Made by a program: the position numbers and the translations under genes. Below the pieces are notes generated by a model. The model made no database searches. It saw nothing but the letters and a program-made list of their open reading frames with translations, and was not told the DNA's origin. 64,000 nt of DNA from a virus (Duplodnaviria; Caudoviricetes). Shown here in pieces: positions 1 to 63,838 of the stretch. The stretch's first letter is position 1; every line of letters begins with the position of its first letter. The stretch is taken from IMG/VR virus record IMGVR_UViG_3300048881_000780; one strand, given 5' to 3'.

Positions 1-149
1 GAGTGGAACCCGAGAAAGGGCCGAGTGGAACCCGAGAAAGGGCCGAGTGGAACCCGAGAAAGGGCCGAGTGGAACCCGAGAAAGGGCCGAGTGGAACCCG
101 AGAAAGGGCCGAGTGGAACCCGAGAAAGGGCCGAGTGGAACCCGAGAAA
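1..149. repeat. 22-bp GC-rich perfect tandem repeat GAGTGGAACCCGAGAAAGGGCC (6 full copies + 17-bp partial, truncated by window edge); iteron-like
   Basis: Units start at 1, 23, 45, 67, 89, 111 and 133; no spacers. Confidence 0.95.
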
Positions 150-341
150 AAAAGCTGTAGGAACAACTAAGTTAGAAAAAGATACCTTTATTAAAGGTAC
201 TTTAAATAGATACTTTTAGAAGTACTATTTAAGGGGACTTTATGTAATTACAGCTAGTTAGAGCATTGTTTTATATACTTATTACCTAATTGAAACTTAG
301 TTTCATTCTTTGTTTTTGTGTTATTTTTACTAATTTAGCAC

Positions 342-2238: not shown

Positions 2239-2586
2239 ATGGGATTACTAAATAACAAAAAGCGTTTTAAGAGAAAGTTACTAGAAATACTAAGAGAAGG
2301 TCGAGAAGAGTACTTCACTTCTTGTGACATCTATGAAGTTGATAAGATTTCTCCTTTAGACTCTTATATCCTGAAAGTTGAAGCATTAGAAAAGATCAAA
2401 TCACTATACAAAAAGGGCGATATTATTCAAAAGAGTAACTCCAGTCCTACGCTACAGTTTAAGTGGTCAGAATTAAGTCTTGCTAGGATTGAAGATGGTG
2501 AATTTATCACCTATTTCAATTTTTTACCAAAAGGTCATAAAAAATACATAAAAGTTCCTATCTTCCTAAAATTTTACGATAAATAA
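2239..2586 (+). CDS. Hypothetical protein
   Basis: 115-aa ORF; TATAAT 9 nt upstream. Confidence 0.65.
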   Translation: MGLLNNKKRFKRKLLEILREGREEYFTSCDIYEVDKISPLDSYILKVEALEKIKSLYKKGDIIQKSNSSPTLQFKWSELSLARIEDGEFITYFNFLPKGHKKYIKVPIFLKFYDK

Positions 2587-7555: not shown

Positions 7556-9967
7556 ATGAAAAAACGTTCTGTAATTAAAAGAGACGGAAGTCAAGAAGAG
7601 ATTAAATTATCCAAAATTATTGAAAGGGTTGAGGCATTAAGTGAAGGACTTGATGTTCAGACTGATATTGTTGCTCAGAAAGTTATTGAAAAGGTAATCG
7701 ATGGTATCACTTCTAAGCAAATTGACCAAGAGATTGCTTTAACTGCGTTCTCTATGGTTTCGGAACATAATCACTACTCATACCTAGCTAGTAAAATTCT
7801 AGCTAGCTCTCTTCACAAGGAAACACCTGGTTTTTATCAAGGTATGAAAATTTTAATCAAAAATGAAGTTGTAGATAAGAAGTATGAACCCGTAATTAAA
7901 AAAATTGGAAAGAAGCTTGAAAAAGCTATTCAATACGACAGAGATCTTACTAATTTTGATTTTATTGGTTTAAAAACATTGGTAGACAATAGTTATCTAC
8001 TAAGGTTAGAAAAAGGTGATTCTAAAGTAATTATCGAAAGACCTCAAGATATGTATATGAGAGTTGCTATTCAAATTCACTGCGACTTTGATAAGAAGGA
8101 TTTTGGAGTTAACGAGATTATCGAGGAGTACAACTTTATTTCTCAAAAAGCTGGTACATACGCTACTCCTACCTTATTTAATAGTTGTACCAAGAGGCCA
8201 CAACTTTCATCTTGTTTCCTCCTTCAAACGGACGATGATTCTATCGAAGGAATTTATAAGACAATGAGTGATACAGCTAAAATTTCTCAATCTTCAGGTG
8301 GTGTGGGACTTGCTGTTCATAATATTAGATCTAAAGGTTCTCGTATTGTTGCATCTAATGGTGTTTCTAACGGTATTGTGCCTATGCTTAGAGTGTTTCA
8401 AGAGACTGCTCGTTATGTAGATCAAGGTGGAGGAAAAAGAAAAGGTAGTTTTGCTATTTACTTAGAACCTTGGCATAAAGATATTGTAGACTTTATAGAC
8501 TGTTCTAATAAACATCTTCCAACTAAAGCTTGTCCAGATTTGTTTACTGCTATCTGGGCTAATGACTTATTTATGGAGAGAGTTGAAAAAGATCAAGAAT
8601 GGACTTTGTTTTGTCCAAATGAACTAAAAAAGAATCATAATGTAGATTTATCTGAGTTATATGACTCACCTGACTCTAAAGACTTTTCAGAAGCATATCT
8701 AAAACTAGAAGAACTAGGTTTTGGTACAAAAATTATGGCAAGAGAGATTTGGGCCAAATTTTTAGAAGCAAATGCAACTTCTGGTCGTCCATATGTAGTA
8801 TTTAAAGACTCTTGTAATCATAAATCAAACCAAAAGAATCTAGGAACAATTAAGAGTTCTAATCTTTGTGCTGAAATTATCGAATATATTTCTCCTGAAG
8901 AGGTGGCGGTGTGTAATTTAGCTTCTATTTCTCTAGTTAAGTATATTACTGGTGAAGGAATTGAGGCAAAAGTAGATAAGGAAGCTCTTGGTAAGGCTGT
9001 AAAGAGATTTACTAAAGGACTTAATAAAATTATTGATATTAACTACTACCCTCTTCCTGAGATGGTTAAAAGTAATAAGAAGAATCGACCAATTGGACTT
9101 GGTGTTCAAGGACTAGCAGATGTATTTTTAATGTGTCATGCTCCATGGGGAAGCGAAAGATCTAGAGTTATTCAAAGAGATATTTTTGAAACTATTTATT
9201 ATTACGCACTTGAAGCATCTATGGAAGTTTCAAAAGTTGATGGTGCCTATGAAACTTTTGAAGGTTCTCCAGCCTCTAGAGGAGAGCTTCAGTTTGACTT
9301 CTATGATCATCAAAATGACAGCAAGATGTATCAATTTATTGGTAAATCAAATGACTTCGACTGGAACGCTCTTAAAGAAAAAATCAAGAAGCATGGATTA
9401 AGAAACAGTCTACTAGTTGCTTGTATGCCAACAGGATCTACTTCGCAAATGCTAGGTAATTTTGAAGGAATCAACCCTTTTCAAGAGAATATTTTTACAA
9501 GAACGCTTCTCAATGGAGAATACCAAGTCGTAAATAGACATCTAATTAGAGATCTACAAAAATTAAATATTTGGAGCTCTTCTGTTAAAAATTCTATTAT
9601 TAGAAATGGTGGTTCAGTTCAAGGAATTGAAGATATCCCAGCTCACTTACGTGAGATTTATAAAACATCATATGAAATTGGTAATAAGAATTTGCTTACA
9701 CTTGCGGCAGATAGGCAAAGATTTATTTGTCAGTCTCAATCAATGAATTTATTTACTTCTGATAATGATGGTAAGAAGTTAACAAAGGCCATACTCTACG
9801 CATGGAAAACAGGTCTTAAAACGGGTAAATACTATCTATATCAAAAAGCTCGAGTCCAAGCTGCGATTATCAATACTGAAGTTAAAGAAAGTCTAACTGA
9901 TGAAATATTAAGTGGCAAGAATGATCCTAATGAGGATCTTGATGATTGCTTAATGTGCGGAGCTTAG
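7556..9967 (+). CDS. nrdA: Class Ia ribonucleotide reductase alpha subunit with ATP cone
   Basis: VIKRDG ATP cone, ATPTLFN, QLSSCFL, SSNLCAEI, AVCNLAS, MPTGSTSQ, KTGKYY, C-terminal CLMCGA. Confidence 0.98.
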   Translation: MKKRSVIKRDGSQEEIKLSKIIERVEALSEGLDVQTDIVAQKVIEKVIDGITSKQIDQEIALTAFSMVSEHNHYSYLASKILASSLHKETPGFYQGMKILIKNEVVDKKYEPVIKKIGKKLEKAIQYDRDLTNFDFIGLKTLVDNSYLLRLEKGDSKVIIERPQDMYMRVAIQIHCDFDKKDFGVNEIIEEYNFISQKAGTYATPTLFNSCTKRPQLSSCFLLQTDDDSIEGIYKTMSDTAKISQSSGGVGLAVHNIRSKGSRIVASNGVSNGIVPMLRVFQETARYVDQGGGKRKGSFAIYLEPWHKDIVDFIDCSNKHLPTKACPDLFTAIWANDLFMERVEKDQEWTLFCPNELKKNHNVDLSELYDSPDSKDFSEAYLKLEELGFGTKIMAREIWAKFLEANATSGRPYVVFKDSCNHKSNQKNLGTIKSSNLCAEIIEYISPEEVAVCNLASISLVKYITGEGIEAKVDKEALGKAVKRFTKGLNKIIDINYYPLPEMVKSNKKNRPIGLGVQGLADVFLMCHAPWGSERSRVIQRDIFETIYYYALEASMEVSKVDGAYETFEGSPASRGELQFDFYDHQNDSKMYQFIGKSNDFDWNALKEKIKKHGLRNSLLVACMPTGSTSQMLGNFEGINPFQENIFTRTLLNGEYQVVNRHLIRDLQKLNIWSSSVKNSIIRNGGSVQGIEDIPAHLREIYKTSYEIGNKNLLTLAADRQRFICQSQSMNLFTSDNDGKKLTKAILYAWKTGLKTGKYYLYQKARVQAAIINTEVKESLTDEILSGKNDPNEDLDDCLMCGA

Positions 9968-13718: not shown

Positions 13719-15392
13719 CTAATAGAAATGTTCAGTGAACGAATCTTCATTTAACGGGATTGATTCTATTGTTTTTCGCGCGGCCTTACCTAGGTTTTGA
13801 ATGTCTCTTGTTAGTTCTAGGTTTGAGGCATACTCATTTACATAATTGAAGATTGAATCTTTCTTGTGGATTCTAATAAAGGCCCATCCTTCTTCACCAG
13901 TAAAAGTACACTCTTCATCCGTTTGAGTCTTTACTGACCAATCTAGTGTTCCTGTCTCTCTTGATTGAACCTTTACGCATCCTTCAAATAAAATAGAAAC
14001 TTCTTGAATTCCTAAGAAATGTCCCCAGTTTACAACTGATAATTGTTCCGTATCTTGTATCACTGAATAATTTTGATAAGAAAAGAAATCATACCATGTA
14101 TCAGTAATCCTTTGATCACCCCTAGCGATCTCTTCATTTGTAAAAAGTTTTGAATCTGCAAAATCAGGGTGGCAAATAGAATAATATCTACCTGTTAATG
14201 TTGCTTGTTCTCGTTGATTTGCTTCAAGAGTAGGAAAAAATTCTTTATTTCTAGCAATGTGACACTCGGGCTTCAAAGGAGTTAATAATTTCTTTCCACT
14301 TGTGTAACTATCATGACTTCTAAAATCTATAGCAAATCCGATATTCCAACTCTTTGATGCATCAATGTTCTCAACTAATAACTCTGTTTGATTAAGAGTG
14401 GCCTCTTCTCCAGATAGTGTAAACTTCAAATTAAAATGCTTTGAGCTATCAAGGATAACATCTTTCGAGAAGAAATTCTCACCCCTTCTGAAAACCTTTA
14501 GACCTGTAATTTTATAAAATTCTAAGTCAAAAATTTCTTGAACAAAAATACTTTGCGAAATTCTCGCAACAGGAATATCCCTAAAGTTAACTCTTAGATC
14601 ATAATTAAATCCTTCAATCTCATTGCCAGCATTAACTGTTGCCAATTTAAAATTTTGATTAGGGATGCCTTCTGTAGAGTAATAATTTTGCCATCTATTC
14701 TTAAGAGTAAAGTCTATAGTTTCTTGGTCAAGAATTGTATTTAATGAACTCTTTTTAGATTCTGGGTAGATCTTAAATTTAACCATATTTGTTTCGACTT
14801 TACCGCCAGGTCCAACTCCTTTGATACTTATAGAGTGAGATATATCTTCAATTGCAACACCATTGTTCTCACTAAAGAATGAGCCATTAAAAAATTGATC
14901 ATGTAGTGGTATATAACCTCTTCCGTCGTTAATAATAACACTCTTGGTGAACTCACCTTTTTGCCCCAAAATACGTCCACCTTGATCTAGTTTTTGGTAC
15001 GATAATTTATACTCGTAATCATTTTTTACATTAAATTGAACAAATACAATTGTATTTACTAACTCATAGTCTCTTTCAGATTCAAGAGCTGGGTTTACAG
15101 TAGGGTTTTTGAATAAGTAACCCAAGTAATCACTAGCTTCAGTAATTGAGTAGGGAATATTGAAATGTGGAATTGTTCCTAAGTTATGGCTATTGGCCTG
15201 CTCAGATGTCACAGTCACCCATCGATTATCATTTAAGTGAAAATATTTCGTGTCCTGAAAGCTTAAAACGCTTGAAGTCGTGTCGATATGAGTGAACCCA
15301 CAATCTTGTCCGGTACATTTATCTTCCTCTGTGGTTTCACCACAACCTACTAAAAAAACTGAAAAAAACAACAGCAATAAAGATAATTTCAT
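13719..15392 (-). CDS. Large beta-rich lipoprotein
   Basis: Lipobox LVGC; GAGGTG RBS supports ATG 15392. Confidence 0.8.
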   Translation of the reverse strand: MKLSLLLLFFSVFLVGCGETTEEDKCTGQDCGFTHIDTTSSVLSFQDTKYFHLNDNRWVTVTSEQANSHNLGTIPHFNIPYSITEASDYLGYLFKNPTVNPALESERDYELVNTIVFVQFNVKNDYEYKLSYQKLDQGGRILGQKGEFTKSVIINDGRGYIPLHDQFFNGSFFSENNGVAIEDISHSISIKGVGPGGKVETNMVKFKIYPESKKSSLNTILDQETIDFTLKNRWQNYYSTEGIPNQNFKLATVNAGNEIEGFNYDLRVNFRDIPVARISQSIFVQEIFDLEFYKITGLKVFRRGENFFSKDVILDSSKHFNLKFTLSGEEATLNQTELLVENIDASKSWNIGFAIDFRSHDSYTSGKKLLTPLKPECHIARNKEFFPTLEANQREQATLTGRYYSICHPDFADSKLFTNEEIARGDQRITDTWYDFFSYQNYSVIQDTEQLSVVNWGHFLGIQEVSILFEGCVKVQSRETGTLDWSVKTQTDEECTFTGEEGWAFIRIHKKDSIFNYVNEYASNLELTRDIQNLGKAARKTIESIPLNEDSFTEHFY

Positions 15393-15483
15393 TATTAACA
15401 CCTCATGTTATATATTTTAACATATTTACGACTAAGCTCCCGAAATTATTTTTCACTACGATAAATAAAACAAGGAGCATTTA

Positions 15484-16155
15484 ATGAAAAAAATATTATT
15501 ACTAATTACGCTTATAACTGCTTGGAATTCTGTTGCGAGCGATATATATCAATGTTCTCTCAAGAGTAAATCTAAGCAAATGATATATATCCAGGGAAAA
15601 AAGATCGGCTCTCACAATAAGAAGTACATAATCTCTGTTTTCGCTGAGATGATTGATTCTAACTATATTGAACTTGAGAAAAGATCTATTATTGCTGTTA
15701 ACTCTAGTGCGTGCGTAAATATTGAAAGCGTGGATTCTAGGGAGTGGATTGAAGTTGATGAAAACCTTAATCCTATTGCAGTGGATAGTAAGAAAAGTGA
15801 AAAGAAGAATGCTTCACAAGTAGGAACTACAAGCAAAAAGAAGGAAACTCAAATTTCTAATTGGGATGATATCAGAAAGGACTTTAATGTAGTTTCAAAG
15901 AAAACTAAAGAACAAGTAAAAAAGACTGTTGATGTAGTTAAAAGAAAAACTACTTCTAAAAAGGATCAAAATGTAGCTAAAGAAAAGAATGATGTAAAGA
16001 AGAGTAATAACGTAGGATCTATATCTCCTAAAAATAATAAGATTAAAAAAGTAACCAGTAGAGAGAAACAGAAAAACATACTAATTTTAATAGTTATATT
16101 TAGCTCTTTCTTGTTGCTTTTTTTGAATTATAAGAAGAAGAAGGAGAAGTTCTAA
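15484..16155 (+). CDS. Exported protein with Lys-rich stalk and C-terminal membrane anchor
   Basis: Signal peptide, C-terminal hydrophobic helix followed by KKKK; AAGGAG RBS. Confidence 0.75.
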   Translation: MKKILLLITLITAWNSVASDIYQCSLKSKSKQMIYIQGKKIGSHNKKYIISVFAEMIDSNYIELEKRSIIAVNSSACVNIESVDSREWIEVDENLNPIAVDSKKSEKKNASQVGTTSKKKETQISNWDDIRKDFNVVSKKTKEQVKKTVDVVKRKTTSKKDQNVAKEKNDVKKSNNVGSISPKNNKIKKVTSREKQKNILILIVIFSSFLLLFLNYKKKKEKF

Positions 16156-16667
16156 TGATCGATCATTACAAGTTAGAATCCCTTCTAATTAAAGACTACG
16201 AATCTAATAGAATAAGTCTTCTTGAAAGATCCGCTAAGGGGTTGGCCTCACTGTCATCAATGAGAGGAAAGTATAAAAATAAAGATATTTATCAAACCTT
16301 TTTTCAATATAATTGTCTTTTGAAAAGACGGGGGATTGAAGAAATATTTATGCAACAAGGTGTTAGTGCTAAAAACTATTATTGTGAAATAGCTAATTTC
16401 TACCTAAAGAATATTAGAGAACATGTATTAAGTGCTTATAAGAGTGGTCACTTAGAAATTGATAAAATATCAATTGTAAGAAATGTAAATGATTCATACT
16501 GCGCAAAGGTAGTGTTAACTGAAGAATATTATAATAGTAGCATAATAATGATGTTTCATGAGGAAGATATAACTAACTTTGAAGAATGCTTTATTGATTC
16601 CCTTCCTAGTGATCAAGACATCAATGAGATATTTAATATTACAGGATTAACTAATGTCAAAAAATGA
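16155..16667 (+). CDS. Hypothetical protein
   Basis: 170 aa; overlaps both neighbouring ORFs. Confidence 0.7.
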   Translation: MIDHYKLESLLIKDYESNRISLLERSAKGLASLSSMRGKYKNKDIYQTFFQYNCLLKRRGIEEIFMQQGVSAKNYYCEIANFYLKNIREHVLSAYKSGHLEIDKISIVRNVNDSYCAKVVLTEEYYNSSIIMMFHEEDITNFEECFIDSLPSDQDINEIFNITGLTNVKK

Positions 16668-17376
16668 AGAAAAAAAGAGTAAAGGTTTATTAAATATATT
16701 ATTCCATATTTATATTCCAACATATTTAAATGGAAAAATTTCTCTTTTAAATCGCCACTCGAGATTAATAAAGGATTGTAGCTCTTATGTTAGAGGTCGA
16801 ATTCTTGCTATCACAATGTTGTTTAATGGATATATCCTGGCATTCCTCTCTATTGGGTACTTAACGATAGAGGAGTTATTGAGGTCAATTTCTAATACTA
16901 ACTTTTCTGGATTTGATTCGGATAGCGCTATAACTGGAGGCCTCGATGTATCATTTCTTGAATACTATAAGCTTTTATATGGTCAAGATTTTGGACAATC
17001 ATTTTTACCTCTGTCTCCAAACTTGGAATTAAATCTAAATATCGGAAATATATACTTGTTTATTTTTCTAGTTATGTTCCCAATTCTAAACAGAACAATG
17101 GCCAAGCTTCACTACATAGTTGATAAGACTGGTGATGCAGAGGTACTACTTAGAAGAAGTGGATACATTAACGAAAATTCAGAAAGAAAATGCCTTCTTA
17201 CTAAAGTTGGACTCTACGTATACCTGGATAAAGGTGACGGTAAGGCCGTTAAAGAAAATAAAGACATTTGGATGATCTTAAATTTAAGGCCTGGTCAAGT
17301 AATATCAAACCCTGATGATATGAGGGAATTTATCATTACCTCAGGTTTTGAATTGCCAGATAGAATCATATATTAA
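16654..17376 (+). CDS. Membrane protein (2 TM helices)
   Basis: Two hydrophobic segments then a soluble C-terminal domain. Confidence 0.7.
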   Translation: MSKNEEKKSKGLLNILFHIYIPTYLNGKISLLNRHSRLIKDCSSYVRGRILAITMLFNGYILAFLSIGYLTIEELLRSISNTNFSGFDSDSAITGGLDVSFLEYYKLLYGQDFGQSFLPLSPNLELNLNIGNIYLFIFLVMFPILNRTMAKLHYIVDKTGDAEVLLRRSGYINENSERKCLLTKVGLYVYLDKGDGKAVKENKDIWMILNLRPGQVISNPDDMREFIITSGFELPDRIIY

Positions 17377-17418
17377 TTATTACGATATATTATTTATAAT
17401 ATATCAAAAGGAGCTAAT

Positions 17419-17853
17419 ATGAAATCTATCGCAATCTTAACACTATTTGTAATCAGTGGATATGCAAATGCAGATTTATCTACACTTTTAAAGAAAAAGA
17501 ATCCTTTTAAGTCTTTACTAATGTCTAGACACAAAATAAACCTCAATCGAAATATGGTTAAAAATAACAAATTATTAAACTCTAAAAGCACTGAACTTTT
17601 CAAGTGGCGTATGGCAAAACTATTTAATACTTCTGAATCTAATATTCAAAATATTTTAAATAAGAATAGTAAGGCCATAGTTAAACAAAATGAAATAGTT
17701 CCTCCTAAGTCAAGAGTTGCGTCTGTTAATAAAATTGACACTCATAAAGAAACAAAAAGAGAAAGCTCTCCTGCTAGTACATCTGTACCTGTTAAAAGCA
17801 GTATCTTTTCGAAAGAATCAGGGTTTAGGATCTTAAACAGACCAAAATATTAA
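17419..17853 (+). CDS. Secreted basic protein
   Basis: Signal peptide (ANA); AAGGAG RBS. Confidence 0.7.
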   Translation: MKSIAILTLFVISGYANADLSTLLKKKNPFKSLLMSRHKINLNRNMVKNNKLLNSKSTELFKWRMAKLFNTSESNIQNILNKNSKAIVKQNEIVPPKSRVASVNKIDTHKETKRESSPASTSVPVKSSIFSKESGFRILNRPKY

Positions 17854-17941
17854 TAGATCTCTAGCACTCTCTTTCCTGCTATAATCAAACTTAACACTAA
17901 ATGTTAAAGTTAAAGCGCCTTAGGGCAAAGTTGAGGTTAAA

Positions 17942-19285
17942 GTGGGTGAGCATACAAAAGAATATTTATCAAAAGAAGAAATCTTAGATATATTTAAAGA
18001 AATTAGTGAATATAACCATAAAAATATGGTTAAACTTTTTCAAAGTCCTTATATTCAAAGAGAAATAAAAGAATTAGCAGAGACGTTTAATAAAAATAGA
18101 AAAATTATGGGTGGTTACTTTAGAGGCATAGAAACTCGAAGAATCACGAATGAAACACTATTGTTTTTAGAAAATCTTCATAAATTCATAAAAAGTATCG
18201 AAAGAAAACAAGGCGAAAATACGAAATTAAAGAAAATTGAAGCGTTCTTTCATGAATACCCGGTTGCAGATGGTATATATGATCTCTTTAAAGAGTCGAT
18301 TAATAGAGATTTAGAGCAATTAAGTTTTTATAGTGACGAAAAGAAAGCTATTGAGTCAGCAATTGAGTCAAAGTTAACTAAGAAAACTCTAGCTCTTATT
18401 ATTGATACTGGTGCTTTTAATTCACGTCCTCTATCTAATGATTTATTAAGAAGGGCCAAAGTACTCAATGAAAACTATCACTTTGTATCTAATCCAAAAA
18501 AGGTTATTCATGTTACTAAAGCTCAATTAGTTGCAATCGACTCTAAAGTGAGTGGAATACAAACAAAATTATTTCTTATGAAAGAAAAAATTATTATGAC
18601 ACATATGAGACTAGTTGAAGATTGCGTTAAGAAGTTCAAAGACAGAGGTATAGATTTAGATGATATAAGACAAGAAGCTCTTATGGGAGTACTTAAGGCA
18701 TCTAAAAGATTTGACCATAGAATGAATTGGACCTTCTCTACTTATGCTACCCAATGGATAAACCAAAAAATATATGCGATATGTAGATCAACACTTATAG
18801 TAAATCACCCTGTCGATAGAACGAATAAAGCTAAAAAGCTAAACTTTGATATCGATGAATTCATCCAAAAGCACTCGAGAAAACCATCATTTGAAGAGAT
18901 TATGAAGCTCGTTAAATCTAAAGATGAGGCCATGGTAATGGAGATTCTTAATTTAACTCAAAAGGATGTCTCCCTACAGTATTCAAACACGGATTATACA
19001 GGCGAAAGAAATTCGTTAATGGCAACATTGTTTGATGACTCCGCAGATGAAGAGCTCGTTAATTATTACAAAGTTGTAATCAGGGATTCTCTAAATGAAT
19101 TGCCGGATATTGAAGCAAGGGCCCTTAAGCTTCTTTATGGGATTGAAACAGAGCAAGAATTATCTAGAAAGATGATTTGCGAAAAACTTGGTGTTTCAAA
19201 CGTTAATTTAAAAATTATTATCGAACAAGGACTAGAGAGAATTCGACAAAGAATTACCTCATTTGAAGAGATTAATAATGTTTAA
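17942..19285 (+). CDS. Divergent RpoD/RpoS-like sigma-70 family factor
   Basis: Region 2 THMRLV...RGIDLDDIRQEALMGVLKASKRFD...FSTYATQWINQKI; region 3 SRKPSFEEI; region 4 LNELPDIEARALKLLYGI. Confidence 0.9.
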   Translation: MGEHTKEYLSKEEILDIFKEISEYNHKNMVKLFQSPYIQREIKELAETFNKNRKIMGGYFRGIETRRITNETLLFLENLHKFIKSIERKQGENTKLKKIEAFFHEYPVADGIYDLFKESINRDLEQLSFYSDEKKAIESAIESKLTKKTLALIIDTGAFNSRPLSNDLLRRAKVLNENYHFVSNPKKVIHVTKAQLVAIDSKVSGIQTKLFLMKEKIIMTHMRLVEDCVKKFKDRGIDLDDIRQEALMGVLKASKRFDHRMNWTFSTYATQWINQKIYAICRSTLIVNHPVDRTNKAKKLNFDIDEFIQKHSRKPSFEEIMKLVKSKDEAMVMEILNLTQKDVSLQYSNTDYTGERNSLMATLFDDSADEELVNYYKVVIRDSLNELPDIEARALKLLYGIETEQELSRKMICEKLGVSNVNLKIIIEQGLERIRQRITSFEEINNV

Positions 19286-19326
19286 TTACGATAATGATTA
19301 ATAGAACTTAAAAAAAAGGATAACTC

Positions 19327-20274
19327 ATGGAAAAAAGATATACAATCTTCCCGTTAAAGAATGAAGATACTTACGAATTCTATAAAAAAGCTCGAGAAGT
19401 ATATTGGAACCCTGAGGAGATCGATCTTTCAAAGGATCTAGATGACTTTAAGAAACTTGATCAACAAGAGCAAGAATTTATATTAAAGATTTTAGCTTTC
19501 TTTGCTCCAAGTGATGGGTTAATTAATGAAAACTTATCTACAAGGTTTAAAAAAGATATTGAGGCCCTATCAAGAGAGGCGGTTGTTTTCTATAACTTCC
19601 AAGAGATGATTGAAGATATTCATAACGAAACTTATTCTCTAATGATTGAGGCCTATGTTGAGAATATTGAAGAAAGAGAAAAGCTATTTAACTCACTAGA
19701 GTTTTTTCCTCTGATTGCGAAAAAGGCAAAATGGATTCAAAAATGGATAGCATCACAAGATATATTTGAAAAAAGACTCCTCGCAATGGCATTGGTAGAG
19801 GGTGTTTTCTTTTCGGGCTCTTTTTGTGCAATTTACTGGTTCAAAGAAAGAGGTATCCTTCCAGGCTTAACTCAATCTAATGAACTAATTTCCAAAGATG
19901 AAACGCTACATTGGGAATTCGCCGCTCACCTATTTAATAAGTATCAAATGAAGTTAAAAATAAGTGAAGAAGAAGTCATTGAAATTGTAAAAGAAGCAGT
20001 GGCTATTGAAGCTGAATTCGTAAAAGATATCCTTCCTGTCGAAATGATTGGAATGAATAGTGATAAGATGATTCAATATATCGAACATGTTGCAGATATG
20101 GTTATTGGAGCTATGGGATATAAGCCCGTTTTTGATTCTTCATGTCCATTTATGTTTATGGAGAATATGGGACTCTCAAAGAAAGTCAATTTTTTCGAAA
20201 GACAAGGTTCAGAATACTCTAAAATGAACAATGTAAAATTTAACGGTGATATTGATTTAGATGATGATTTTTAA
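19327..20274 (+). CDS. nrdB: Class Ia ribonucleotide reductase beta subunit
   Basis: YWNPEEID, FFAPSDG, EDIHNETY, VEGVFFSGSF, DETLH, NFFERQGSEY. Confidence 0.98.
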   Translation: MEKRYTIFPLKNEDTYEFYKKAREVYWNPEEIDLSKDLDDFKKLDQQEQEFILKILAFFAPSDGLINENLSTRFKKDIEALSREAVVFYNFQEMIEDIHNETYSLMIEAYVENIEEREKLFNSLEFFPLIAKKAKWIQKWIASQDIFEKRLLAMALVEGVFFSGSFCAIYWFKERGILPGLTQSNELISKDETLHWEFAAHLFNKYQMKLKISEEEVIEIVKEAVAIEAEFVKDILPVEMIGMNSDKMIQYIEHVADMVIGAMGYKPVFDSSCPFMFMENMGLSKKVNFFERQGSEYSKMNNVKFNGDIDLDDDF

Positions 20275-20311
20275 AAGATAGAATCACTCAACTAAAGTTT
20301 ATAATATAAGT

Positions 20312-23300
20312 ATGAAATATATATTAATATTAGTACTTATTTTAATCGCTTCATGTAGTAAGAAAGACCAAAAAGAAGTCGCTCTTTCGAATGTATCATA
20401 TGAGAAATTTTCTCTTAATGAAGATAGTATTAAACAATTCACTCTACCTGTTAGCGTAAATAACAATACTGCTAAAGTTAGTATTGTTAACTTTCCTTTA
20501 AATGGTGAACTTTCTTGTGATCAATTGGAATGTACATTTACTCCAAATGAAAATTATTATGGAGTTGATACTTTTACAGTATCAATTACAGATGAGGCAA
20601 ATAAAGAACAAATTAAAGAATATCGCTTAGAAGTTTTGCCAATAAATGATCCGCCAGAATCACAAGATATTTCTTTTAATATTCAAGAAGATAAAAATTT
20701 AACATTTGAATTAATTAAACTTGATCATGATACAAAGTTTGAAGACATTGAAATTGACTGGATTGATTCTCCTGATGGAGCTTTTGGAAGAATTCAGTGT
20801 CAAGATCATAATTGCGAATTGATTTTAAATGAAAACTATGATGAAAGCTTTACACTTAGGTATAAACTGAGTGATGGTGAGTTTGACTCTCAAGAGCATC
20901 AAGTATCTTTTAATATGCAACCTGTTAATGATGCTCCTAGTTTATCTGAAGATCTTAATGTTTTAGCAATTAAAGATACTGTTAGAAATTTTAATATTCC
21001 AAGCTTGGTAGATCCAGAAGGTGACGACGCTAACTGGTATATCTATAGCGCTCCCCGTAATGGAACTCTTGCATGTTCTGGGAACAATTGCAATTATGTT
21101 CCTAATCCTACATTCTCTGGTGATGATTTTTTTGTTATAGATCTAATTGATAATCTAGGGGCAAAAAAGAGACAAGTTATTGAGGTTTTTGTTGATAGTG
21201 GAAATGAGCCTCCAGTTGTACCATATTTTCAAAATATTTCGGCCATTGAAGATATTCCAATTAGGTTTGACATAGCAAGTGGAGCAGACCCAGAAGGATC
21301 ACTGCTAAATTACTATTTTTCAAGCTTATCAGATAACGGGAACGTAAGTTGTGATTTTTCGTCACTAAGTTGTCTATTCACACCTCATCAAGATTTTAAT
21401 GGTAGCACAACCTTTTCATATATAGTTAGAGATGACTTTGCCCAAGAGAGTGTTACCTCTGTAGTCCTCGATTTTGCTCCTGTTAACGATCCTCCTGAAT
21501 ACTCTGGAGATATTTCGTTTACATCGAACGAAGACGAAGATCTTATATTTAACTTACCAAGCTTTAGTGATGTCGATGGAGATAATATCAATATTGTACA
21601 ATCCAGTAATCCTAGTAATGGTATTTTGATTTGCGAAATATCAAATGGAGAAATTTGTACTTTTAGACCAAACTCAAATTTTTATGGACAAGACTCCTTT
21701 TCTCTCAATTATAGTGACGGGGCCTCTAGTCATTCCATTGAAATTAATTTTGATATCCAAAATGTTGTAGATACGCCTCGATTTGCAGATTTAAATATTT
21801 CGTTAACTACACTTGAAGATAATCAAAAGAGTTTTATTATTCCGGAAGCGACATCCCCTGAGAGTGAATCAATTTTATATTCAATATCAAGAGTACCTGT
21901 TAATGGTAATTTAATTTGCACGGAGCGGTCTTGTACTTACACCCCTAGTGAAAATTATAATGGCCCTGACAGTTTTGAAGTTTCTTCAGAAGTTTTAGGT
22001 ACTGTTGGAGATAAGATTAATTACGTGGTAAATGTTACTCCTGTAGAAGACGCCCCTTCTGTGATTGTTGAGTCAATAACAACAAATGAAGATGAAGTAT
22101 TGTCTTTTCGATTGCCTTTAGCAACAGAGCCAGATGGTGATGGATTAATATATGAATTAATTGGTAGTGTGTCTAATGGTGAAATTAGTTGTAATAATGA
22201 CCTACCACCAGGATGTCTTTACTCACCTGACGCAAACTTTAATGGAACCGATAAACTTAAATTTAAAGTCTCGGATACAAAGGGCCAGTACATTGTAGCT
22301 GAACAGGACATTGTCGTAACGCCAGTTAATGACCCTCCTTTACTTACTCAAGGAAATATTCAGGTTTTAAATGGTTTGGAAGATCAGGTTTTAGTTTTCA
22401 ATTTAAATCAAGGAATTGATGTTGATGGCGACTTATTAACTTGTTCTCATAATGGAGATAATCTCAATGGTGATTTAGTTTGTGATAATTGCGCTTGCGT
22501 CTACACTCCAGGTTCAAACTTCTTCGGAGAGGACTTTGTTACATATAAAGTAAGTGATGGAGTATTTGAAACGAGTTATGTTGTACAGAATATTAATATC
22601 GAGGAAGTAAATGATTTACCAGTCTACGATAATCTACTTGAAGTAAATGCTCTTAGAAATACTACTACTAACTTTCTACTTCCAAATGCTTTTGATGAAG
22701 ATGGCATTAATGATAGTCTAACTTATGAAATTGTAAAATATCCAAGCGAAGGATCTCTTGTTTGCACTCAGAGAAATTGCAACTATACAGCATTAATAAA
22801 TATCGGAACTTTTAATTTTGAATATAGAGTGTACGATAAAAGCGGTAGTGATGGAGGGATTGGTACAGGACAAATTAATGTAATTAGAGATAATAATGCA
22901 CCTGAATTAAAGCAAGTCGATCCAATATCACTAGTTGGCGCTGAAGATAATAATATCGACTTTCAATTTATTAAATCTTACGATCCTGATTTTGACCAAA
23001 CAACTACACTGATTGGAGAGGTGAATGCTCAATACGGACAAGTTGTTTGTGAGGCACTTGAGTCAAATAGATGTACATATATACCTAATGAGAATTTTAA
23101 TGGATCAGATTCGTTTACATTAAAATCATTCGATGGTGAACTTTATTCAGAAGAAGAGATTCAAGTTAGTGTTTTAATAACTCCAGTTAATGATGCCCCA
23201 GTTTTTAATTCTACTGATATTCAATACTGGATTAATGACAATACTAGAATTGAAGTTAGTATTCCAACAGCATTTGATGTGGATGGTGATAGTTTACAAT

Positions 23301-28834: not shown

Positions 28835-30133
28835 CACTAAAAGTATAAGTACAAACCTCTCACATTAAAAGTATAAAATTAAAAATAAAACTTCAAAAGT
28901 CTCTCTTTATATCTCCAACATTAAATGTATATTGATGTAGATATTAAACTTTAAAAGTACCTTCACAATATCTGAGTTCGGAGATTCACTTTATAAAAAT
29001 ATTTTTCCCATTAAAAGTACCAAACAATATTTTAATTCCCACTAAAAGTACCGTTATTCGTAGATATTTTCAATTAATCCCACTAAAAGTACCAAATACT
29101 AATGTGTCAAATTTCAAACATCTTAAAATCTGTTTTAAAAACTACTCATGATTAATATTTGGGTACTTTTAGTGTTTAATTCCTTTTAACATTTATCTTT
29201 TCTGGTACTTTTAATGGGAATCTCTCTAAATATTGGTACTTATAGTGTTTGAAATTTAAGTAACGGTACCTTTAGTGGTGCCAGGTACTTTTAATGTTAA
29301 CGGTGCGTTAAATCTGAGCTTTTTAATGTATTTTGGTACTTTTAACGCGGGGCCGTTACTTATAGTGTTTGAGAATCGGTACTTTTGGTGTTTCTCGGTA
29401 CTTTTAACGCATGGCCATACTTTCTAAGTATTTATTAATATTAAAAACACCCAGTATAAGTACCGCCTATAAATATATAAATAAATAATTATATATATTA
29501 TATCTTTTTTTATTTCTTATGATTAAGGTCTAAACTATCAATTAAAAATCTATTGAAGGATTAAGTAGAACCATTGGTACTTTTAATGGGAAGATTCTTA
29601 TATGTTGGTACTTTTAAAGTTAACTTGTTCTTTTAATGTGATCATGGTTTTTATGATGTGTAGTTATTGGTACTTTTAATGTGCTAAGTTTCTTTAGATG
29701 TACGTTATTTTTCACTAAGATATTAATTTTATATAAATACACATTAAAAGTACCGCGTATAAGTATATAAATATATATATCTTTATTTATATATGTAGAG
29801 AATAGAACACTAAAAGTACCGTAACAGGGACATTAAACACTATAAGTAACGAGATATTTTTTTGGTACTTTTGATGTTGAACCAATGTCGATACGAAATA
29901 TTAGTTGTATTCCTAATCGCTTTAAATCAATGGATAATAATTTATAATATAGCCATACAACCATTAAAAGTACCGACATTGGTTAAAACCACTCTAGTAC
30001 ACTTTTAAATATAATGTCACGTATAAGCTTAGATCTTAGCTTTAAATTAAACTGGGGCCATTTTCGAGGCCCTCACAATAGACTATAGATTTGATCAAAC
30101 GAAAGTAATTGAGGCCCACACATTAAAAGTACC
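28835..30133. repeat. Replication origin: about 25 dispersed iterons, consensus CAYTAAAAGTACC, both orientations, with two AT-rich tracts
   Basis: Examples at about 29009, 29040, 29081, 29742, 29808, 29962, 30121 (+) and 29162, 29204, 29284, 29335, 29397, 29576, 29669 (-); AT tracts near 29468-29520 and 29757-29795. Confidence 0.9.
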
Positions 30134-30154
30134 GTTTAGGTCTCTTTCTTGAGA

Positions 30155-30214
30155 TATATCAACCGAGAGACTCATATGGATTCGTATAATTTCGAGTCTC
30201 TCAGCGTTGATATA
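30155..30214. other. Imperfect inverted repeat between origin and par operon
   Basis: TATATCAAC-C-GAGAGACTC ... GAGTCTCTC-AGC-GTTGATATA. Confidence 0.6.
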
Positions 30215-30296: not shown

Positions 30297-30878
30297 CTAG
30301 AGTTCAATAAATATCTTACTTAGAACATCCTCTATATCTTCCTCATAATCGTAATCGTAATAATCAATATGATCCATTCTCGCAAGAAAATGTCTTATTA
30401 ACCCTCTGACGATTACTGATTTTGTTATTGGATCCCTTTCTTTAAGTGGGACTGTGGTATTGGCCTTTGATTCGTCATTTGCTCTTTTAACTTCGTCTTC
30501 TAGGGTGTTTAAATATTCTGAAAGCTCTCTTATTTCAAACCTTTTAACATCGCTATCTTTAAGCCATTCAATCTTTTCAAACCTCCTGGCTTTCTTTGGA
30601 GTTACGTTAACTTCTTTCTTTAATTTTGAATTTTCTTTTTGAAGCTCTTCGGCCTGCATTTTTAGTTTTTCAATTTCCTTTTGCTTCTCTTCTAATTCTT
30701 TATTCGTTACGTCTGGTGTTGGACTTGGCTGATGATCTATTTCAGTGTCACTTGAAGCTTCTATTTGATTTTCATCACTCTCGTCAATCTGTGGATCTAC
30801 TCCAATAGGTGTAAATCCTTTAAAAGCAGATGAAACATTTCCATTCTTTGAGTCTCTCTGTGCGAATCCATTTGCCAT
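30297..30878 (-). CDS. Putative centromere-binding partition adaptor (type Ib-like)
   Basis: 1 nt downstream of parA; disordered N-terminus, coiled coil, C-terminal ITKSVIVRGLIRHFL helix; no ParB Arg patch. Confidence 0.65.
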   Translation of the reverse strand: MANGFAQRDSKNGNVSSAFKGFTPIGVDPQIDESDENQIEASSDTEIDHQPSPTPDVTNKELEEKQKEIEKLKMQAEELQKENSKLKKEVNVTPKKARRFEKIEWLKDSDVKRFEIRELSEYLNTLEDEVKRANDESKANTTVPLKERDPITKSVIVRGLIRHFLARMDHIDYYDYDYEEDIEDVLSKIFIEL

Positions 30879-30879
30879 A

Positions 30880-31818
30880 TTAAAGCTCTCTATTCATTGA
30901 AGGTTTACTAGTTTCGCTAATTCTACTCTGAATTAACATATTAGCTCTCTCTAGGATTTGATCTGTTATTTTTGAATATGCATCTGCAACGTCCTTACAT
31001 CTCCCCTTCTTGTTTTTAAAATCTAAGAAAGACTGATCATTTTGAATCATTGTGTTAATTGCTTCATAAGTTGGAACGACTGGTTTTATCAGTAGATCAC
31101 CATACTTACCTTCAAGGTATTCCAAGCACTCTTTCGATCCTCTTGTTCTCTTGTCGTATTTAGGGATTACTAAACCAATGCAGTCTAACCTATTATTATA
31201 TGCAGAAACGCCTTCATTGATTTCAACAATTAAATCAAATGTATCATTAACACCATCGACCCCATAATCAGATGAAGCAACTGGCATTAAAACACCAAGG
31301 CCCATTGAAGGTCCCTTGTTAAAAGGATTATATGTGGCCGCTATCATTGAATTGTAAATTACTGAGTTATCATTAGATGGCGGTAGATCAATGATTGTAT
31401 AATCAAAATTTTCAAAAACCTTATCGTTTAAAAACTTTGTAATTCTTTGTTGAGAATTTGATAACCCACTTAGAATGTCACTTAGTGAGTACTTATCTCC
31501 ATCTACCCTTTTTTCATTTGGGATAAAGAATAAATTTTCGTGAATTTCTGATTGATAAATTACATCAGATGGAACCATCTCTCTGTTTTTACCAGTTTCA
31601 GGGTCAGTAAAATTATTTTTTGCAAAGTATCTTAATATACCAACATCGACAGTATTACCCTTTGCTAGTGATGATGAAGCATTTCCTTGGATATCTAAAT
31701 CCAATAAGAGAGTTTTTTTTCCTTTATTTGCTAAATTTTGTGCTAGAGCTAAAGCAAAAGATGTTTTTCCAACCCCACCTTTACCCATTGTTACTGATAT
31801 AACTTTATTTTTCTTCAT
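30880..31818 (-). CDS. parA: ParA/Soj-family partition ATPase
   Basis: KGGVGKTS deviant Walker A, LLLDLDIQGNAS, FDYTIIDLPPS. Confidence 0.95.
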   Translation of the reverse strand: MKKNKVISVTMGKGGVGKTSFALALAQNLANKGKKTLLLDLDIQGNASSSLAKGNTVDVGILRYFAKNNFTDPETGKNREMVPSDVIYQSEIHENLFFIPNEKRVDGDKYSLSDILSGLSNSQQRITKFLNDKVFENFDYTIIDLPPSNDNSVIYNSMIAATYNPFNKGPSMGLGVLMPVASSDYGVDGVNDTFDLIVEINEGVSAYNNRLDCIGLVIPKYDKRTRGSKECLEYLEGKYGDLLIKPVVPTYEAINTMIQNDQSFLDFKNKKGRCKDVADAYSKITDQILERANMLIQSRISETSKPSMNREL

Positions 31819-32322: not shown

Positions 32323-32451
32323 TTAAAAAGTCATTTTGACCTATGTTATGGCATTGCTTGTAGTTGATAGCGCCACAGACCGTAAATTGGATCTAAATTT
32401 ATAAATTATCACTTCTTTTAAATACGATAAGTATATTAATAGGAGATATGT

Positions 32452-39510: not shown

Positions 39511-39569
39511 TAATTAGATTTATATCTATTATAAATTTTTACGATAATAGATATAGACAAGGAGTTACG

Positions 39570-39764
39570 ATGAACAAGAAACAAAAAGAAGAATTAATAA
39601 ATGTAATAGCAGAGGTTTATCCTGAGGCAATTCAATCGATGGCCAAAACGATTTCAATAATTACTCTTACTATTTATGAAGAAGATGATGCCATTGGGGA
39701 TTTGAATACTATTTCGAGTGAAATATTAGAGATGATCAAGAAAAAGGTTGATAAGTCCTTTTAA
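39570..39764 (+). CDS. Small hypothetical protein
   Basis: AAGGAG RBS and TACGATAA box before ATG 39570. Confidence 0.7.
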   Translation: MNKKQKEELINVIAEVYPEAIQSMAKTISIITLTIYEEDDAIGDLNTISSEILEMIKKKVDKSF

Positions 39765-39784
39765 TTAAATCATCTCTATTAGAA

Positions 39785-41200: not shown

Positions 41201-41271
41201 AATAACTCCTATGATAGTTATAGTTATTATAGTTTTTTTATCAATAATATTAACAAGTTAGTGTTACTAGT

Positions 41272-42438: not shown

Positions 42439-42568
42439 GAAGTTATTATAAGAAAGAGAAGGTGATTTATTATTACCTTAAATTAATACATAATAACGTC
42501 TTTATTTTGAATAACTAGATACCTTAGTGTTATCTATTTAATTATTTTTATATTGGTGATTATTAACT

Positions 42569-42868
42569 CTATCTATATGGTAAGTATTCTCGTATATCAC
42601 TAGAGTCAGAGAGATCTTCATTGATCATAATTTCATCACCAACTTTAATCCCTAAATCTTTTAATTTCTGTATAAACATAGGTGCATCACAATCTTCTTC
42701 CAAAAATACGCATCCACCTCTTTGTTTTGAGCTTTTGGATATTTCACTGTGAATACCAAGCACATCAAGAACACATTTATCAACTTTCAGCCATCCATGT
42801 CCACCAGTGTAGAAAGTTAGTCCTTGTGGGTGAAGTTCATTTATTAAATCTAGTACTCTCTGTTTCAT
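42569..42868 (-). CDS. Small conserved mobile-element protein (GHGWL...LEEDCDA type)
   Basis: GGHGWLKV...EISKSS...VFLEEDCDA; AAGGAG RBS. Confidence 0.7.
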   Translation of the reverse strand: MKQRVLDLINELHPQGLTFYTGGHGWLKVDKCVLDVLGIHSEISKSSKQRGGCVFLEEDCDAPMFIQKLKDLGIKVGDEIMINEDLSDSSDIREYLPYR

Positions 42869-43018
42869 TACTATCTCCTTTAAAGACTTATCGTAATTTA
42901 CGAGAAAGTGGCACTAGACAGATTCTCAATCTTTAGTAAGTTACCCAAGTTACTGTCATTAATGACCATTCTCGAAACTGACATTCCTTTGTGCTAATAT
43001 AAATTTAGAGAGGCTAAT

Positions 43019-43505: not shown

Positions 43506-43509
43506 TGGA

Positions 43510-45290: not shown

Positions 45291-45378
45291 TTTGTTAAAA
45301 GCGATTTATCCTGTCGATCCAAATAATTCTCCCTGAATAAATAGTAAGTAGTTGTTATTACGATAAGGTTATAGAAAT

Positions 45379-45408: not shown

Positions 45409-45421
45409 GTAGGTGAGAGAT

Positions 45422-46701: not shown

Positions 46702-47129
46702 TTTTCACCTCATATTTATTATCGTAATCAATACAAGAGAAACTATGATTTTCTTAATATGGAGCCATCATTAATGTAGAGTCTTAGTCAGGTTTATGGG
46801 GTGATGTAATATTCTTTAATATAGGTGGTTTTGTAGGTAGTTTAATGTTTGGGAATAAAGGATCGCATATAGGGACTATGCGGTCTTAGTGTTATTTTGT
46901 AACGCTCTGGGTTGTCGCTAGAACTTTTTCTGGCATTTTTGGGTATATCTAGGCCTACTTAAAATTTACTCCAGTAACTATTAATAGTTCGTAGTTACTG
47001 GATAAAAAATGGTTAAATTCTCTCCGTAGTTGGCACAGTATAAATTTACAAAAATGGACTTAATACTGTTACTAGAATTTAGTAACACCTAGTAACGTTA
47101 CAACAATTAAGTAACGCTATTGTTTTACT

Positions 47130-47212: not shown

Positions 47213-47273
47213 GTTTTAGAATTTCAGACATTGTTACTGATATAAATACGATAAATATCATAGGAGATATCTT

Positions 47274-48413: not shown

Positions 48414-48549
48414 TTAACCTCCATTTCTTTAATTATCGTAAATTAAAAACTTTCAAGACTTACCCCTCTTAGCGTTTACATATTTAATAACGTTAGCAAG
48501 CGTTTATAAAACCACTAACGCTTTTTACGATAATCTAATTGAGGTTTTT

Positions 48550-48985: not shown

Positions 48986-49364
48986 TTTTGATAGGTATTT
49001 GTATTGACCAGAAAAAGAAGCAAAATCTCATTTAGAAATAACATTACAAAACTTTCTTTAAAAAGAATTTTGAATCTCACCAAGACTTTTCATTAGCCCT
49101 AAAAAAAGAGCTTTCAAGTATGATTTTTATTGTAAAAAACGATCCCAAGTTCAATGGGGACAAATCTTTATATACATATTTTCAAATGAAGCTACTAGGA
49201 ATAATAAAAATCCAAAAGACTTCAGTGATAACTTACTCCGTAAAATTTATGATTCCTATAATGCTGATGATTCAAATATCAAATGCTCAGAAAACCATAA
49301 TAGATCAAATATGAGCATTTAAACTCGCTCAAGTGTCTAAAATTACGATAATTATATAAGTAAT

Positions 49365-50437: not shown

Positions 50438-50496
50438 TAAGAATCTCCCTTGAGTTACTTATCGTAACTTTACGATAAGATAGAAAAGGAGGCTTG

Positions 50497-63805: not shown

Positions 63806-63838
63806 TAATTCCTCAGTGCTTATAATTCTCTTATCGTA

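What the first reader, a model, noticed from the sequence alone, without database searches (positions are those of the whole stretch)
17942..19285. Element-encoded sigma factor with rewired promoter-recognition residues
Seen: region 2.3/2.4 reads FSTYATQWINQKI where group 1 sigmas have FSTYATWWIRQAI. The region 4.2 helix reads ICEKLGVSNVNLKIIIEQGL where the usual form is VGxxFxVTRERIRQIExKAL. Known: the WW pair and neighbouring residues melt and read the -10 element, and RERxRQ reads -35. Inference: this sigma has lost -35 reading and has an altered -10 specificity, which is what a -35-less TACGATAA promoter would need (compare T4 gp55). A box follows its stop codon directly (19287). Sigma plus box could be an undescribed self-contained transcription programme on a megaplasmid.
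Basis: partly seen in the sequence, partly recalled or inferred. Interest (0 to 1): 0.8.

Follow-up and report, generated by a model that had tools for sequence, protein, structure and literature searches.

The report
Orphan plasmid sigma factor, rewired DNA-reading residues
A giant plasmid-like element from an uncultured bacterium encodes a complete but relative-less sigma factor whose promoter-reading residues are almost all changed. It is the best candidate reader of the element's private 8-base promoter word TACGATAA, but that link is only circumstantial.

Summary
ORF 17942-19285 (+) is an intact 447-aa sigma-70-family protein. Regions 2, 3 and 4 fold confidently; the helical N-terminal 190 residues match nothing.

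It has no orthologue: the best of 1.84 billion representative proteins is 29% identical.

Compared with its 63 nearest relatives:
- **-10 and extended -10 readers:** almost all changed (W433Q, R436N, R441 deleted, R448L, R451N, H455D, E458N).
- **Region 4.2 readers:** all five changed (R584N, E585V, R586N, R588K, Q589I).
- **Melting residues:** F427, Y430, W434 and Q437 are kept.

TACGATAA occurs 21 times against 2.6 expected. Fifteen copies sit co-oriented just upstream of start codons, are invariant, and have no -35 partner.

New here: the sigma gene has no exact box of its own. It sits behind a CACT-N11-TATAAT promoter overlapped by the element's palindromic operator. That suggests a repressor-gated cascade like SigN of plasmid pBS32.

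The sigma-to-box link is still inference. The one catalogued relative, pBdHM1, lacks both sigma and box, and no sister element was found for a co-occurrence test.

The scan had already noted the box on this same element, not on other DNA.

Verdict: a new variant of a known kind, of moderate interest.

The parts
17942..19285 (+). Orphan sigma-70-family gene, 447 aa. Residues 1-190 are a helical region with no relatives; about 190-445 are sigma-2, sigma-3, the 3.2 linker and sigma-4.
18734..18772 (+). Codons for FSTYATQWINQKI (region 2.3/2.4). Q replaces W433, N replaces R436, K replaces A438.
19175..19234 (+). Codons for the region 4.2 helix-turn-helix ICEKLGVSNVNLKIIIEQGL. All five -35-contact positions are changed.
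17865..17885 (+). The sigma gene's own promoter-like site: CACT-N11-TATAAT, which also reads TGCTATAAT.
   Evidence: the pattern occurs 4 times against 0.34 expected
17892..17906 (+). Palindromic operator TAACACTAAATGTTA, 6 nt downstream of the TATAAT.
   Evidence: 2 sites against 0.06 expected
17933..17936 (+). Shine-Dalgarno GAGG, 5 nt before the GTG start.
19287..19294 (+). TACGATAA box one base after the sigma stop codon and 32 nt before the nrdB ATG (19327).
15457..15464 (+). TACGATAA box heading the four orphan genes 15484-17853 that run into the sigma gene. No terminator-like site lies between them.
17381..17388 (+). One-mismatch variant TACGATAT before ORF 17419-17853, the gene just upstream of sigma. 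Its reading is ambiguous because a TATAAT follows it.
2575..2582 (+). Box, 18 nt before the ATG of a 526-aa orphan.
32423..32430 (+). Box, 21 nt before the ATG at 32452.
39540..39547 (+). Box, 22 nt before the ATG at 39570.
42888..42895 (-). Box, 19 nt before the ATG at 42868.
45359..45366 (+). Box upstream of an inverted repeat plus TATAAT, then a two-gene module whose second gene is an HTH_37 protein.
46719..46726 (-). Box, 17 nt before the ATG at 46701.
47247..47254 (+). Box, 19 nt before the ATG at 47274.
48433..48440 (-). Box before a small ORF; divergent partner of the box at 48526.
48526..48533 (+). Box before a small ORF.
49344..49351 (+). Box upstream of an inverted repeat plus TATAAT, then a second two-gene module ending in an HTH_37 protein.
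50459..50466 (-). Box of a back-to-back pair, 4 nt from its partner, in an intergenic gap of about 59 bp.
50471..50478 (+). Partner box of the back-to-back pair.
63831..63838 (-). Box, 25 nt before the ATG of the 1216-aa FtsK/Mrr-domain gene.

Best explanation
The gene encodes a working alternative sigma factor of the element. It descends from the RpoD (group 1/2) lineage and binds the host core RNA polymerase.

Its region 2.4/3.0 surface has been rebuilt, and its region 4.2 recognition helix has lost the contacts that read TTGACA. It would therefore start transcription at promoters made of a single, highly specific -10-type box with no -35 element. The invariant TACGATAA boxes in front of about 15 transcription units in this window are the best candidates for those promoters.

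The sigma gene itself is transcribed from a different kind of promoter, CACT-N11-TATAAT, which carries a canonical -10 element that a housekeeping sigma could use. That promoter is overlapped by the element-wide palindromic operator. The proposed cascade is therefore: repressor release, then sigma synthesis, then the TACGATAA regulon. Read-through from the box-headed operon just upstream may add positive feedback.

**Shown:** family membership, an intact fold, the residue changes, orphan status, box enrichment and placement, absence of a -35 element, and the architecture of the sigma gene's promoter and operator.

**Inferred:** core binding, the altered specificity, the pairing of sigma with the box, the cascade and the feedback.
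For: **The protein**
- It keeps the melting and -12-reading residues but changes the -10, extended -10 and -35 readers.
- It is the only sigma ORF in the window.

**The box**
- It occurs 21 times against 2.56 expected. Fifteen copies are co-oriented 15-55 nt before start codons.
- No position from -50 to -1 exceeds 0.6 bit of information.
- One-mismatch variants almost never sit next to genes. This points to a very specific reader.
- Two back-to-back boxes fill an intergenic gap of about 59 bp, leaving no room for another promoter.

**The box does not fit sigma-28**
- It departs invariably from the sigma-28 consensus at -15/-14 (TA instead of GC). Changing both of those bases severely damages sigma-28 promoters (PMC12784957).
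- It lacks the TTAAG/TAAA -35 element (PMC3627812).

**The sigma gene's own control**
- CACT-N11-TATAAT occurs 4 times against 0.34 expected.
- The operator occurs 2 times against 0.06 expected, and one copy lies on this promoter.
- No terminator-like site lies between the box at 15457 and the sigma gene, or between sigma and nrdB.

**Outside evidence**
- pBdHM1 has no Sigma70_r2 match and no box excess: 3 copies against 5 for the control word.
- A repressor-gated, self-activating plasmid sigma already exists: SigN of pBS32 (PMC6751061).
Against: - No experiment or cross-genome co-occurrence ties this sigma to the box. No orthologue exists to test with.
- Most of the 361-kb element could not be read.
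- Another agent reports a second sigma-like orphan elsewhere on the element (e1-5758111). I did not check it.
- The box core CGATAA is the sigma-28 core, and in Bdellovibrio FliA is a global regulator (PMC3627812). This sigma has W, not R, at the position that reads -12G in sigma-28 (PMC12784957). The residues therefore do not explain how CGA would be read.
- Only 3 of the 15 gene-proximal boxes lie in the half of the window that holds the sigma gene.
- The pBdHM1 control is weak: its relation to this element is distant (nrdA 37% identical).
Confidence: 0.5

Rival explanations
1. The sigma is functional but reads another promoter set, either the CACT-N10/11-TAWAAT class, which includes its own promoter, or a motif not yet recognised. 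TACGATAA is then read by a different factor, for example the 300-aa sigma-like orphan in the secretion operon.
For: - Its own gene carries CACT-N11-TATAAT, and many alternative sigmas activate their own genes.
- It keeps Q437, Y430 and W434, which serve TATAAT-type reading.
- A second sigma-like gene is reported on the element (e1-5758111, unchecked).
Against: - The CACT box lies only 11 bp from the -10 element, about 6 bp too close for a flap-bound sigma-4. The 3.2 linker is of normal length. This is an inference from holoenzyme geometry.
- A near-perfect TATAAT suits a housekeeping sigma. This sigma has lost R441, R448, R451, H455 and E458.
- The earlier agent could not show that the other orphan is a sigma.
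Confidence: 0.2
2. The boxes are read by a host FliA/sigma-28-type factor, tying cargo genes to a motile or attack phase. The element's sigma has an unrelated role.
For: - The core CGATAA equals the sigma-28 -10 core (PMC12784957).
- The Bdellovibrio attack-phase consensus is TTAAG-N16-CCGATA, found in 66% of such promoters (PMC3627812).
- The only catalogued relative of the element is a Bdellovibrio plasmid.
Against: - There is no TTAAG or TAAA at N15-16.
- TA replaces GC at -15/-14 in all 15 boxes, a double change that is severely defective for sigma-28 (PMC12784957).
- The host is unknown.
- pBdHM1, in a real Bdellovibrio, shows no box excess.
Confidence: 0.15
3. TACGATAA is not a promoter core. 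It is an operator for a DNA-binding regulator, or an RNA leader element placed at a fixed distance from the ribosome-binding site.
For: - The spacing from box to Shine-Dalgarno is tight; the SD signal sits at +15 to +19 from the box start.
- An invariant 8-mer is more typical of an operator than of a -10 element.
Against: - The back-to-back pair sits in a gap of about 59 bp, leaving no space for separate promoters.
- Three boxes lie 32-55 nt from the start codon, two of them upstream of a second promoter.
- The box is asymmetric and strictly co-oriented with genes.
- No sigma-70-type promoters above chance occur nearby.
Confidence: 0.08
4. The protein no longer directs promoter recognition. 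It acts as a core-binding competitor or decoy that damps host transcription.
For: - It has lost many DNA-contact arginines.
- SigN of pBS32 is reported to be intrinsically toxic (PMC10601692; I read only the title and the start of the abstract).
Against:
- The 1344-nt ORF is intact in 31% GC DNA.
- Sigma-3, the finger and sigma-4 are all kept.
Confidence: 0.07

Closest known systems
SigN (ZpdN) of Bacillus subtilis plasmid pBS32 (PMC6751061)
   Same: A plasmid-encoded sigma-70-family factor with a regulon on its own plasmid. Its gene is driven by a housekeeping-type promoter under a repressor (LexA) plus a self-dependent promoter. Here the parallels are a TATAAT promoter with an operator, and box-headed genes upstream.
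   Different: There is no detectable orthology. SigN's promoter consensus and regulon were determined experimentally; here everything is inferred. This protein is larger, with an unmatched 190-residue N-terminus. The element is 361 kb and its host is unknown and uncultured.
Group 1/2 sigma factors (RpoD/SigA, RpoS)
   Same: They are the best sequence and fold matches. The layout of regions 1.2 (degenerate), 2, 3, 3.2 and 4 is the same, and F427, Y430, W434 and Q437 are kept.
   Different: All NCBIfam cut-offs are missed by far (100 bits against 384.5). The WW pair, R436, R441, R448, R451, H455, E458 and RERxRQ are all changed.
Sigma-28 (FliA/WhiG) and its GCCGATAA promoters (PMC12784957, PMC3627812)
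   Same: The box shares the CGATAA core and the idea of a composite 8-bp -10 region. Q at the W433 position also occurs in E. coli FliA; this last point is from my own memory of the sequence and was not tested.
   Different: The FliA model scores 62.6 bits against a cut-off of 189.6. W, not R, sits at the -12G-reading position. There is V, not R, after the conserved proline, where R91/R97 reads the GC. The boxes have TA instead of GC and no -35 element.
Phage T4 gp55 and late promoters TATAAATA
   Same: A mobile-element sigma paired with an invariant 8-bp single-box promoter without a -35 element. This is a functional analogy drawn from my own knowledge.
   Different: gp55 is a minimal region-2-like sigma without region 4, and it needs gp33 and the sliding clamp. 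[quoted passage not shown] No homology to gp55 was tested.
MzaA, the sigma-like component of the MZA anti-phage system
   Same: A generic sigma-domain match: NCBIfam 89.5 bits and PADLOC 57.4 bits.
   Different: The cut-off is 800 bits. None of the five neighbouring genes scanned matched any defence-system model.

Membership tests
Sigma-70 family | Region 2 (core binding and -10 melting) matches above the curated cut-off | tested here: met
   PF04542 scores 43.3 bits against a cut-off of 24. A profile of 63 relatives built without the query scores 175 bits.
Sigma-70 family | Region 4 helix-turn-helix domain is present | tested here: inconclusive
   PF04545 scores 18.7 bits, below its cut-off of 24.1. 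The AF2 model gives pLDDT 94-98 for residues 380-440 with a sigma-4-like helix pattern. Foldseek aligns the model to full-length SigA chains.
Sigma-70 family | Binds core RNA polymerase and directs initiation | not testable with these tools
   This needs biochemistry. Region 2.2 keeps D, Q, E and G/L at most conserved positions.
Group 1/2 sigma (RpoD/SigA/RpoS) | Score above the NCBIfam subfamily or equivalog cut-offs | tested here: not met
   TIGR02997 scores 100.1 bits against 384.5, and RpoD_Cterm 93.9 against 354.
Group 1/2 sigma (RpoD/SigA/RpoS) | Conserved WWIRQ in region 2.4 and TRERxRQIE in region 4.2 | tested here: not met
   The protein has QWINQ and SNVNLKIII. 55-63 of 63 relatives carry the canonical residues.
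Sigma-28 (FliA/WhiG) | Score above the TIGR02479 cut-off | tested here: not met
   62.6 bits against 189.6. No FliA chain is among the 60 best of the 67 solved-structure sequence matches.
Sigma-28 (FliA/WhiG) | Arg at the W434-equivalent position (reads -12G), and Arg after the conserved Pro (reads the GC at -15/-14) | tested here: not met
   W272 and V291 occupy these positions. The roles of the residues are taken from PMC12784957.
Sigma-28-type promoter | A TAAA/TTAAG -35 element at N15-16, and GC at -15/-14 | tested here: not met
   No upstream position exceeds 0.6 bit of information. TA is invariant at -15/-14.
SigN-like plasmid sigma programme | The sigma is encoded on the plasmid, and a shared promoter motif lies on plasmid genes | tested here: met
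   The gene is present and there are 15 gene-proximal boxes. That the element is plasmid-like comes from earlier notes and was not re-tested.
SigN-like plasmid sigma programme | The sigma gene is under a repressor-controlled housekeeping promoter plus a self-dependent promoter | tested here: inconclusive
   Motifs only. TATAAT with the operator lies at 17865-17906. The boxes at 15457 and 17381 (variant) lie upstream with no terminator between them and the sigma gene.
MZA defence system (MzaA) | Score above the cut-off, and partner genes adjacent | tested here: not met
   89.5 bits against 800. The neighbours have no PADLOC hits.

The most novel reading that the evidence does not exclude
A full-length sigma-70-family factor has given up -35 reading and recognises promoters only through one invariant 8-bp box. 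It would be a functional counterpart of T4 gp55 built on a complete sigma-2 to sigma-4 scaffold. Under a master repressor, it would switch on a large share of the cargo genes of a 361-kb deep-sea plasmid-like element.
Probability: 0.4. Interest if true: 0.6.

Novelty: new variant of a known kind. Interest (0 to 1): 0.45.

Why it matters
If the pairing is real, it offers a compact and possibly orthogonal sigma/promoter pair: one protein and one 8-bp word with no -35 element. It would also be a natural example of how the -10 and -35 reading surfaces of an RpoD-type sigma can be rebuilt. And it would give a first handle on how an orphan giant plasmid from an uncultured vent bacterium orders its gene expression: repressor, then sigma, then cargo. 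The general idea of a mobile element carrying its own sigma and regulon is already established by SigN of pBS32 and by phage sigmas.

Tried and rejected
**Searches for orthologues or sister elements (none found)**
- The 5.8-billion-protein word search gave at best 88 bits and 29% identity.
- The exhaustive 1.84-billion HMMER search gave at best 114.6 bits, with nothing below E = 1e-30.
- Plasmid and phage tblastn gave nothing above 31% identity.
- The metagenome scan returned only an ordinary 263-aa phage-type sigma (L001) with no significant box excess.
- A genome-contig scan with nrdB returned only a 40% identical Verrucomicrobiales gene.

**Attempts to read the rest of the element (all failed)**
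- No whole genome is held.
- Exact-match scans of viral and genome contigs found nothing.

**Other leads that went nowhere**
- The N-terminal 190 residues have no Pfam or PHROG match. The protein atlas gave only weak leads, scores 0.88-0.90, to region 1.2 and the non-essential region.
- A literature search for TACGATAA returned only primers.
- A second weak sigma-profile hit at 49681-50037 is an HTH_37 protein, not a sigma.
- The MzaA defence reading was rejected.
- Direct orthology with sigma-28 was rejected.

Full report
**What is there.** ORF 17942-19285 (+) starts at GTG, with GAGG 5 nt upstream, and encodes 447 aa. Pfam finds Sigma70_r2 at 43.3 bits (cut-off 24) and Sigma70_r4 at 18.7 bits, below its cut-off of 24.1. 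NCBIfam ranks RpoD/SigA-type models first, at 100 bits, far below every curated cut-off. SigB/F/G models score 96 bits and FliA 62.6. A profile built from 63 relatives without the query scores the ORF at 175 bits. The only other hit in six-frame ORFs of the window is an HTH_37 protein at 49705-50040. The window therefore holds exactly one sigma gene.

**Fold.** AF2 with a 64-row alignment gives pLDDT 87-98 for residues 190-345 and 380-440. [quoted passage not shown] Residues 1-190 are helical but poorly predicted. Foldseek and sequence searches against solved structures return group 1 sigmas first; no FliA chain is among the 60 listed. Some RpoD alignments reach back to residue about 103. The protein atlas gives weak leads (0.88-0.90) to region 1.2 and the non-essential region. 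The N-terminus may therefore be a diverged 1.2/NCR segment, but this is only a lead.

**Orphan status.** The best of 1.84 billion representative proteins scores 114.6 bits at 29% identity, and none has E below 1e-30. The 5.8-billion-protein word search gives at best 88 bits. Plasmid and phage records give nothing above 31% identity. No hit covers the N-terminal half.

**The 'rewired' residues.** I counted columns against the 63 nearest relatives, using E. coli sigma-70 numbering from my own alignment.
- **Changed in regions 2.3 to 3.0:** W433Q (0 of 63 relatives have Q, 55 have W), R436N, A438K, T440Y, R441 deleted, R448L (R in 55), R451N (R in 61), H455D (H in 49) and E458N.
- **Changed in region 4.2:** R584N, E585V, R586N, R588K and Q589I. 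Relatives carry the canonical residue in 55-59 of 63 cases.
- **Kept:** F427, Y430, W434 (63/63), Q437 and P453, as well as most of the core-binding region 2.2.

Among 269 fetched relatives, only one other has QW, and two or three have an arginine-poor 4.2 helix.

**The box.** TACGATAA occurs 21 times against 2.56 expected.
- Fifteen copies are co-oriented 15-55 nt upstream of start codons. Thirteen precede ORFs of 64 aa or more, and two precede smaller ORFs.
- Aligned on the box, no position from -50 to -1 exceeds 0.6 bit of information. There is no -35 partner, including no TAAA or TTAAG at N15-16. The Shine-Dalgarno signal appears at +15 to +19 from the box start.
- One-mismatch variants are scattered in coding DNA. 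Only one, TACGATAT at 17381, sits before a gene.
- Two boxes 4 nt apart, back to back, serve divergent genes in a gap of about 59 bp. That leaves no room for other promoters.

I read the box as a -10-type core promoter that gives very short leaders. Two registers are possible, and I could not choose between them:
- TACGAT as -12 to -7, which keeps T-12, A-11 and T-7.
- The sigma-28-like register, -15 TACGATAA -8.

**New here: the sigma gene's own control region.** The gene has no exact box immediately upstream of its own start. It lies behind CACT-N11-TATAAT at 17865-17885, which also reads TGCTATAAT. Six nt further on is the palindrome TAACACTAAATGTTA at 17892-17906. CACT-N11-TATAAT occurs 4 times against 0.34 expected, and the palindrome pattern 2 times against 0.06. 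Earlier agents on neighbouring windows described both motifs as an element-wide promoter class and a repressor operator (e1-5762663, e1-5758106). I confirmed only their presence and their excess here.

No terminator-like site separates the box-headed operon (15457, genes 15484-17853) from the sigma gene, or the sigma gene from nrdB. The layout is a housekeeping-type, repressible promoter with possible self-driven read-through. That parallels SigN of pBS32, which has a LexA-repressed SigA-dependent promoter and a SigN-dependent one (PMC6751061).

**Does this sigma read the box?**

For:
- It is the only sigma in the window.
- Its changes fit a class with an unusual -10 element and no -35.
- The other promoter class carries a canonical TATAAT that suits a housekeeping sigma. 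Its CACT box lies too close, at 11 bp, for a flap-bound sigma-4 to reach. This last point is an inference.
- The box departs invariably from the sigma-28 consensus at -15/-14, and the double change there is severely defective for sigma-28 (PMC12784957).
- pBdHM1 (AP029175.1, nrdA 37% identical) has neither a Sigma70_r2 match nor a box excess: 3 copies against 5 for the control word.

Against:
- There is no functional or comparative test.
- The core CGATAA is sigma-28-like, and FliA is a global regulator in Bdellovibrio (TTAAG-N16-CCGATA; PMC3627812).
- This sigma has W where sigma-28 uses R to read -12G. The residues therefore give no mechanistic account of how CGA is read.
- A second sigma-like orphan is reported elsewhere on the element (e1-5758111, unchecked).
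- Most of the element could not be read.

I put the pairing at about 0.5.

**Novelty.** Mobile-element sigmas with private regulons are known: SigN, and the SPO1 and T4 sigmas (the last two from my own knowledge). This one is an orphan with an unmatched N-terminal half, a rebuilt reading surface, and a probable single-box promoter class. I call it a new variant of a known kind. The scan had already noted the box on this same element, not on other DNA.

Noticed in passing
window 28900-30200: A non-coding stretch holds about 20 copies, in both orientations, of an iteron-like word (C/A)CA(C/T)TAAAAGTACC. AAAGTACC occurs 22 times against 2.75 expected. It lies beside ORFs 30297-30878 and 30880-31818 on the minus strand. 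It looks like an origin or centromere repeat field.
   Followed up: no
window 1-165: At least seven tandem copies of a 22-bp unit, GGGTTCCACTCGGCCCTTTCTC on the minus strand, run off the start of the window.
   Followed up: no
window 20285-20312: A CACT-N11-TATAAT site ends 6 nt before the ATG of the 2062-aa adhesin-like gene. Its transcript would be leaderless or nearly so.
   Followed up: partly
window 15396-15410: The second copy of the palindromic operator, TAACACCTCATGTTA, overlaps the start codon region of the 560-aa minus-strand gene 13719-15401. It lies 47 nt upstream of the box at 15457.
   Followed up: partly
window 45359-45420 and 49344-49410: Two paralogous control regions share one layout: a TACGATAA box, then a roughly 18-bp inverted repeat, then GTGCGTTATAAT, then a two-gene module whose second gene is an HTH_37 protein. 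These look like tandem promoters on toxin-antitoxin-like pairs.
   Followed up: partly
window 39540-51015: Ten of the 15 gene-proximal boxes cluster in about 12 kb of small, mostly orphan genes. Only three lie in the first 32 kb of the window.
   Followed up: partly
window 7556-9967 and 19327-20274: nrdA and nrdB lie 9.4 kb apart in different units, and only nrdB has a box. The best plasmid match of nrdA is 49% identical (Fulvitalea), and the best GTDB match of nrdB is 40% (a Verrucomicrobiales MAG).
   Followed up: partly
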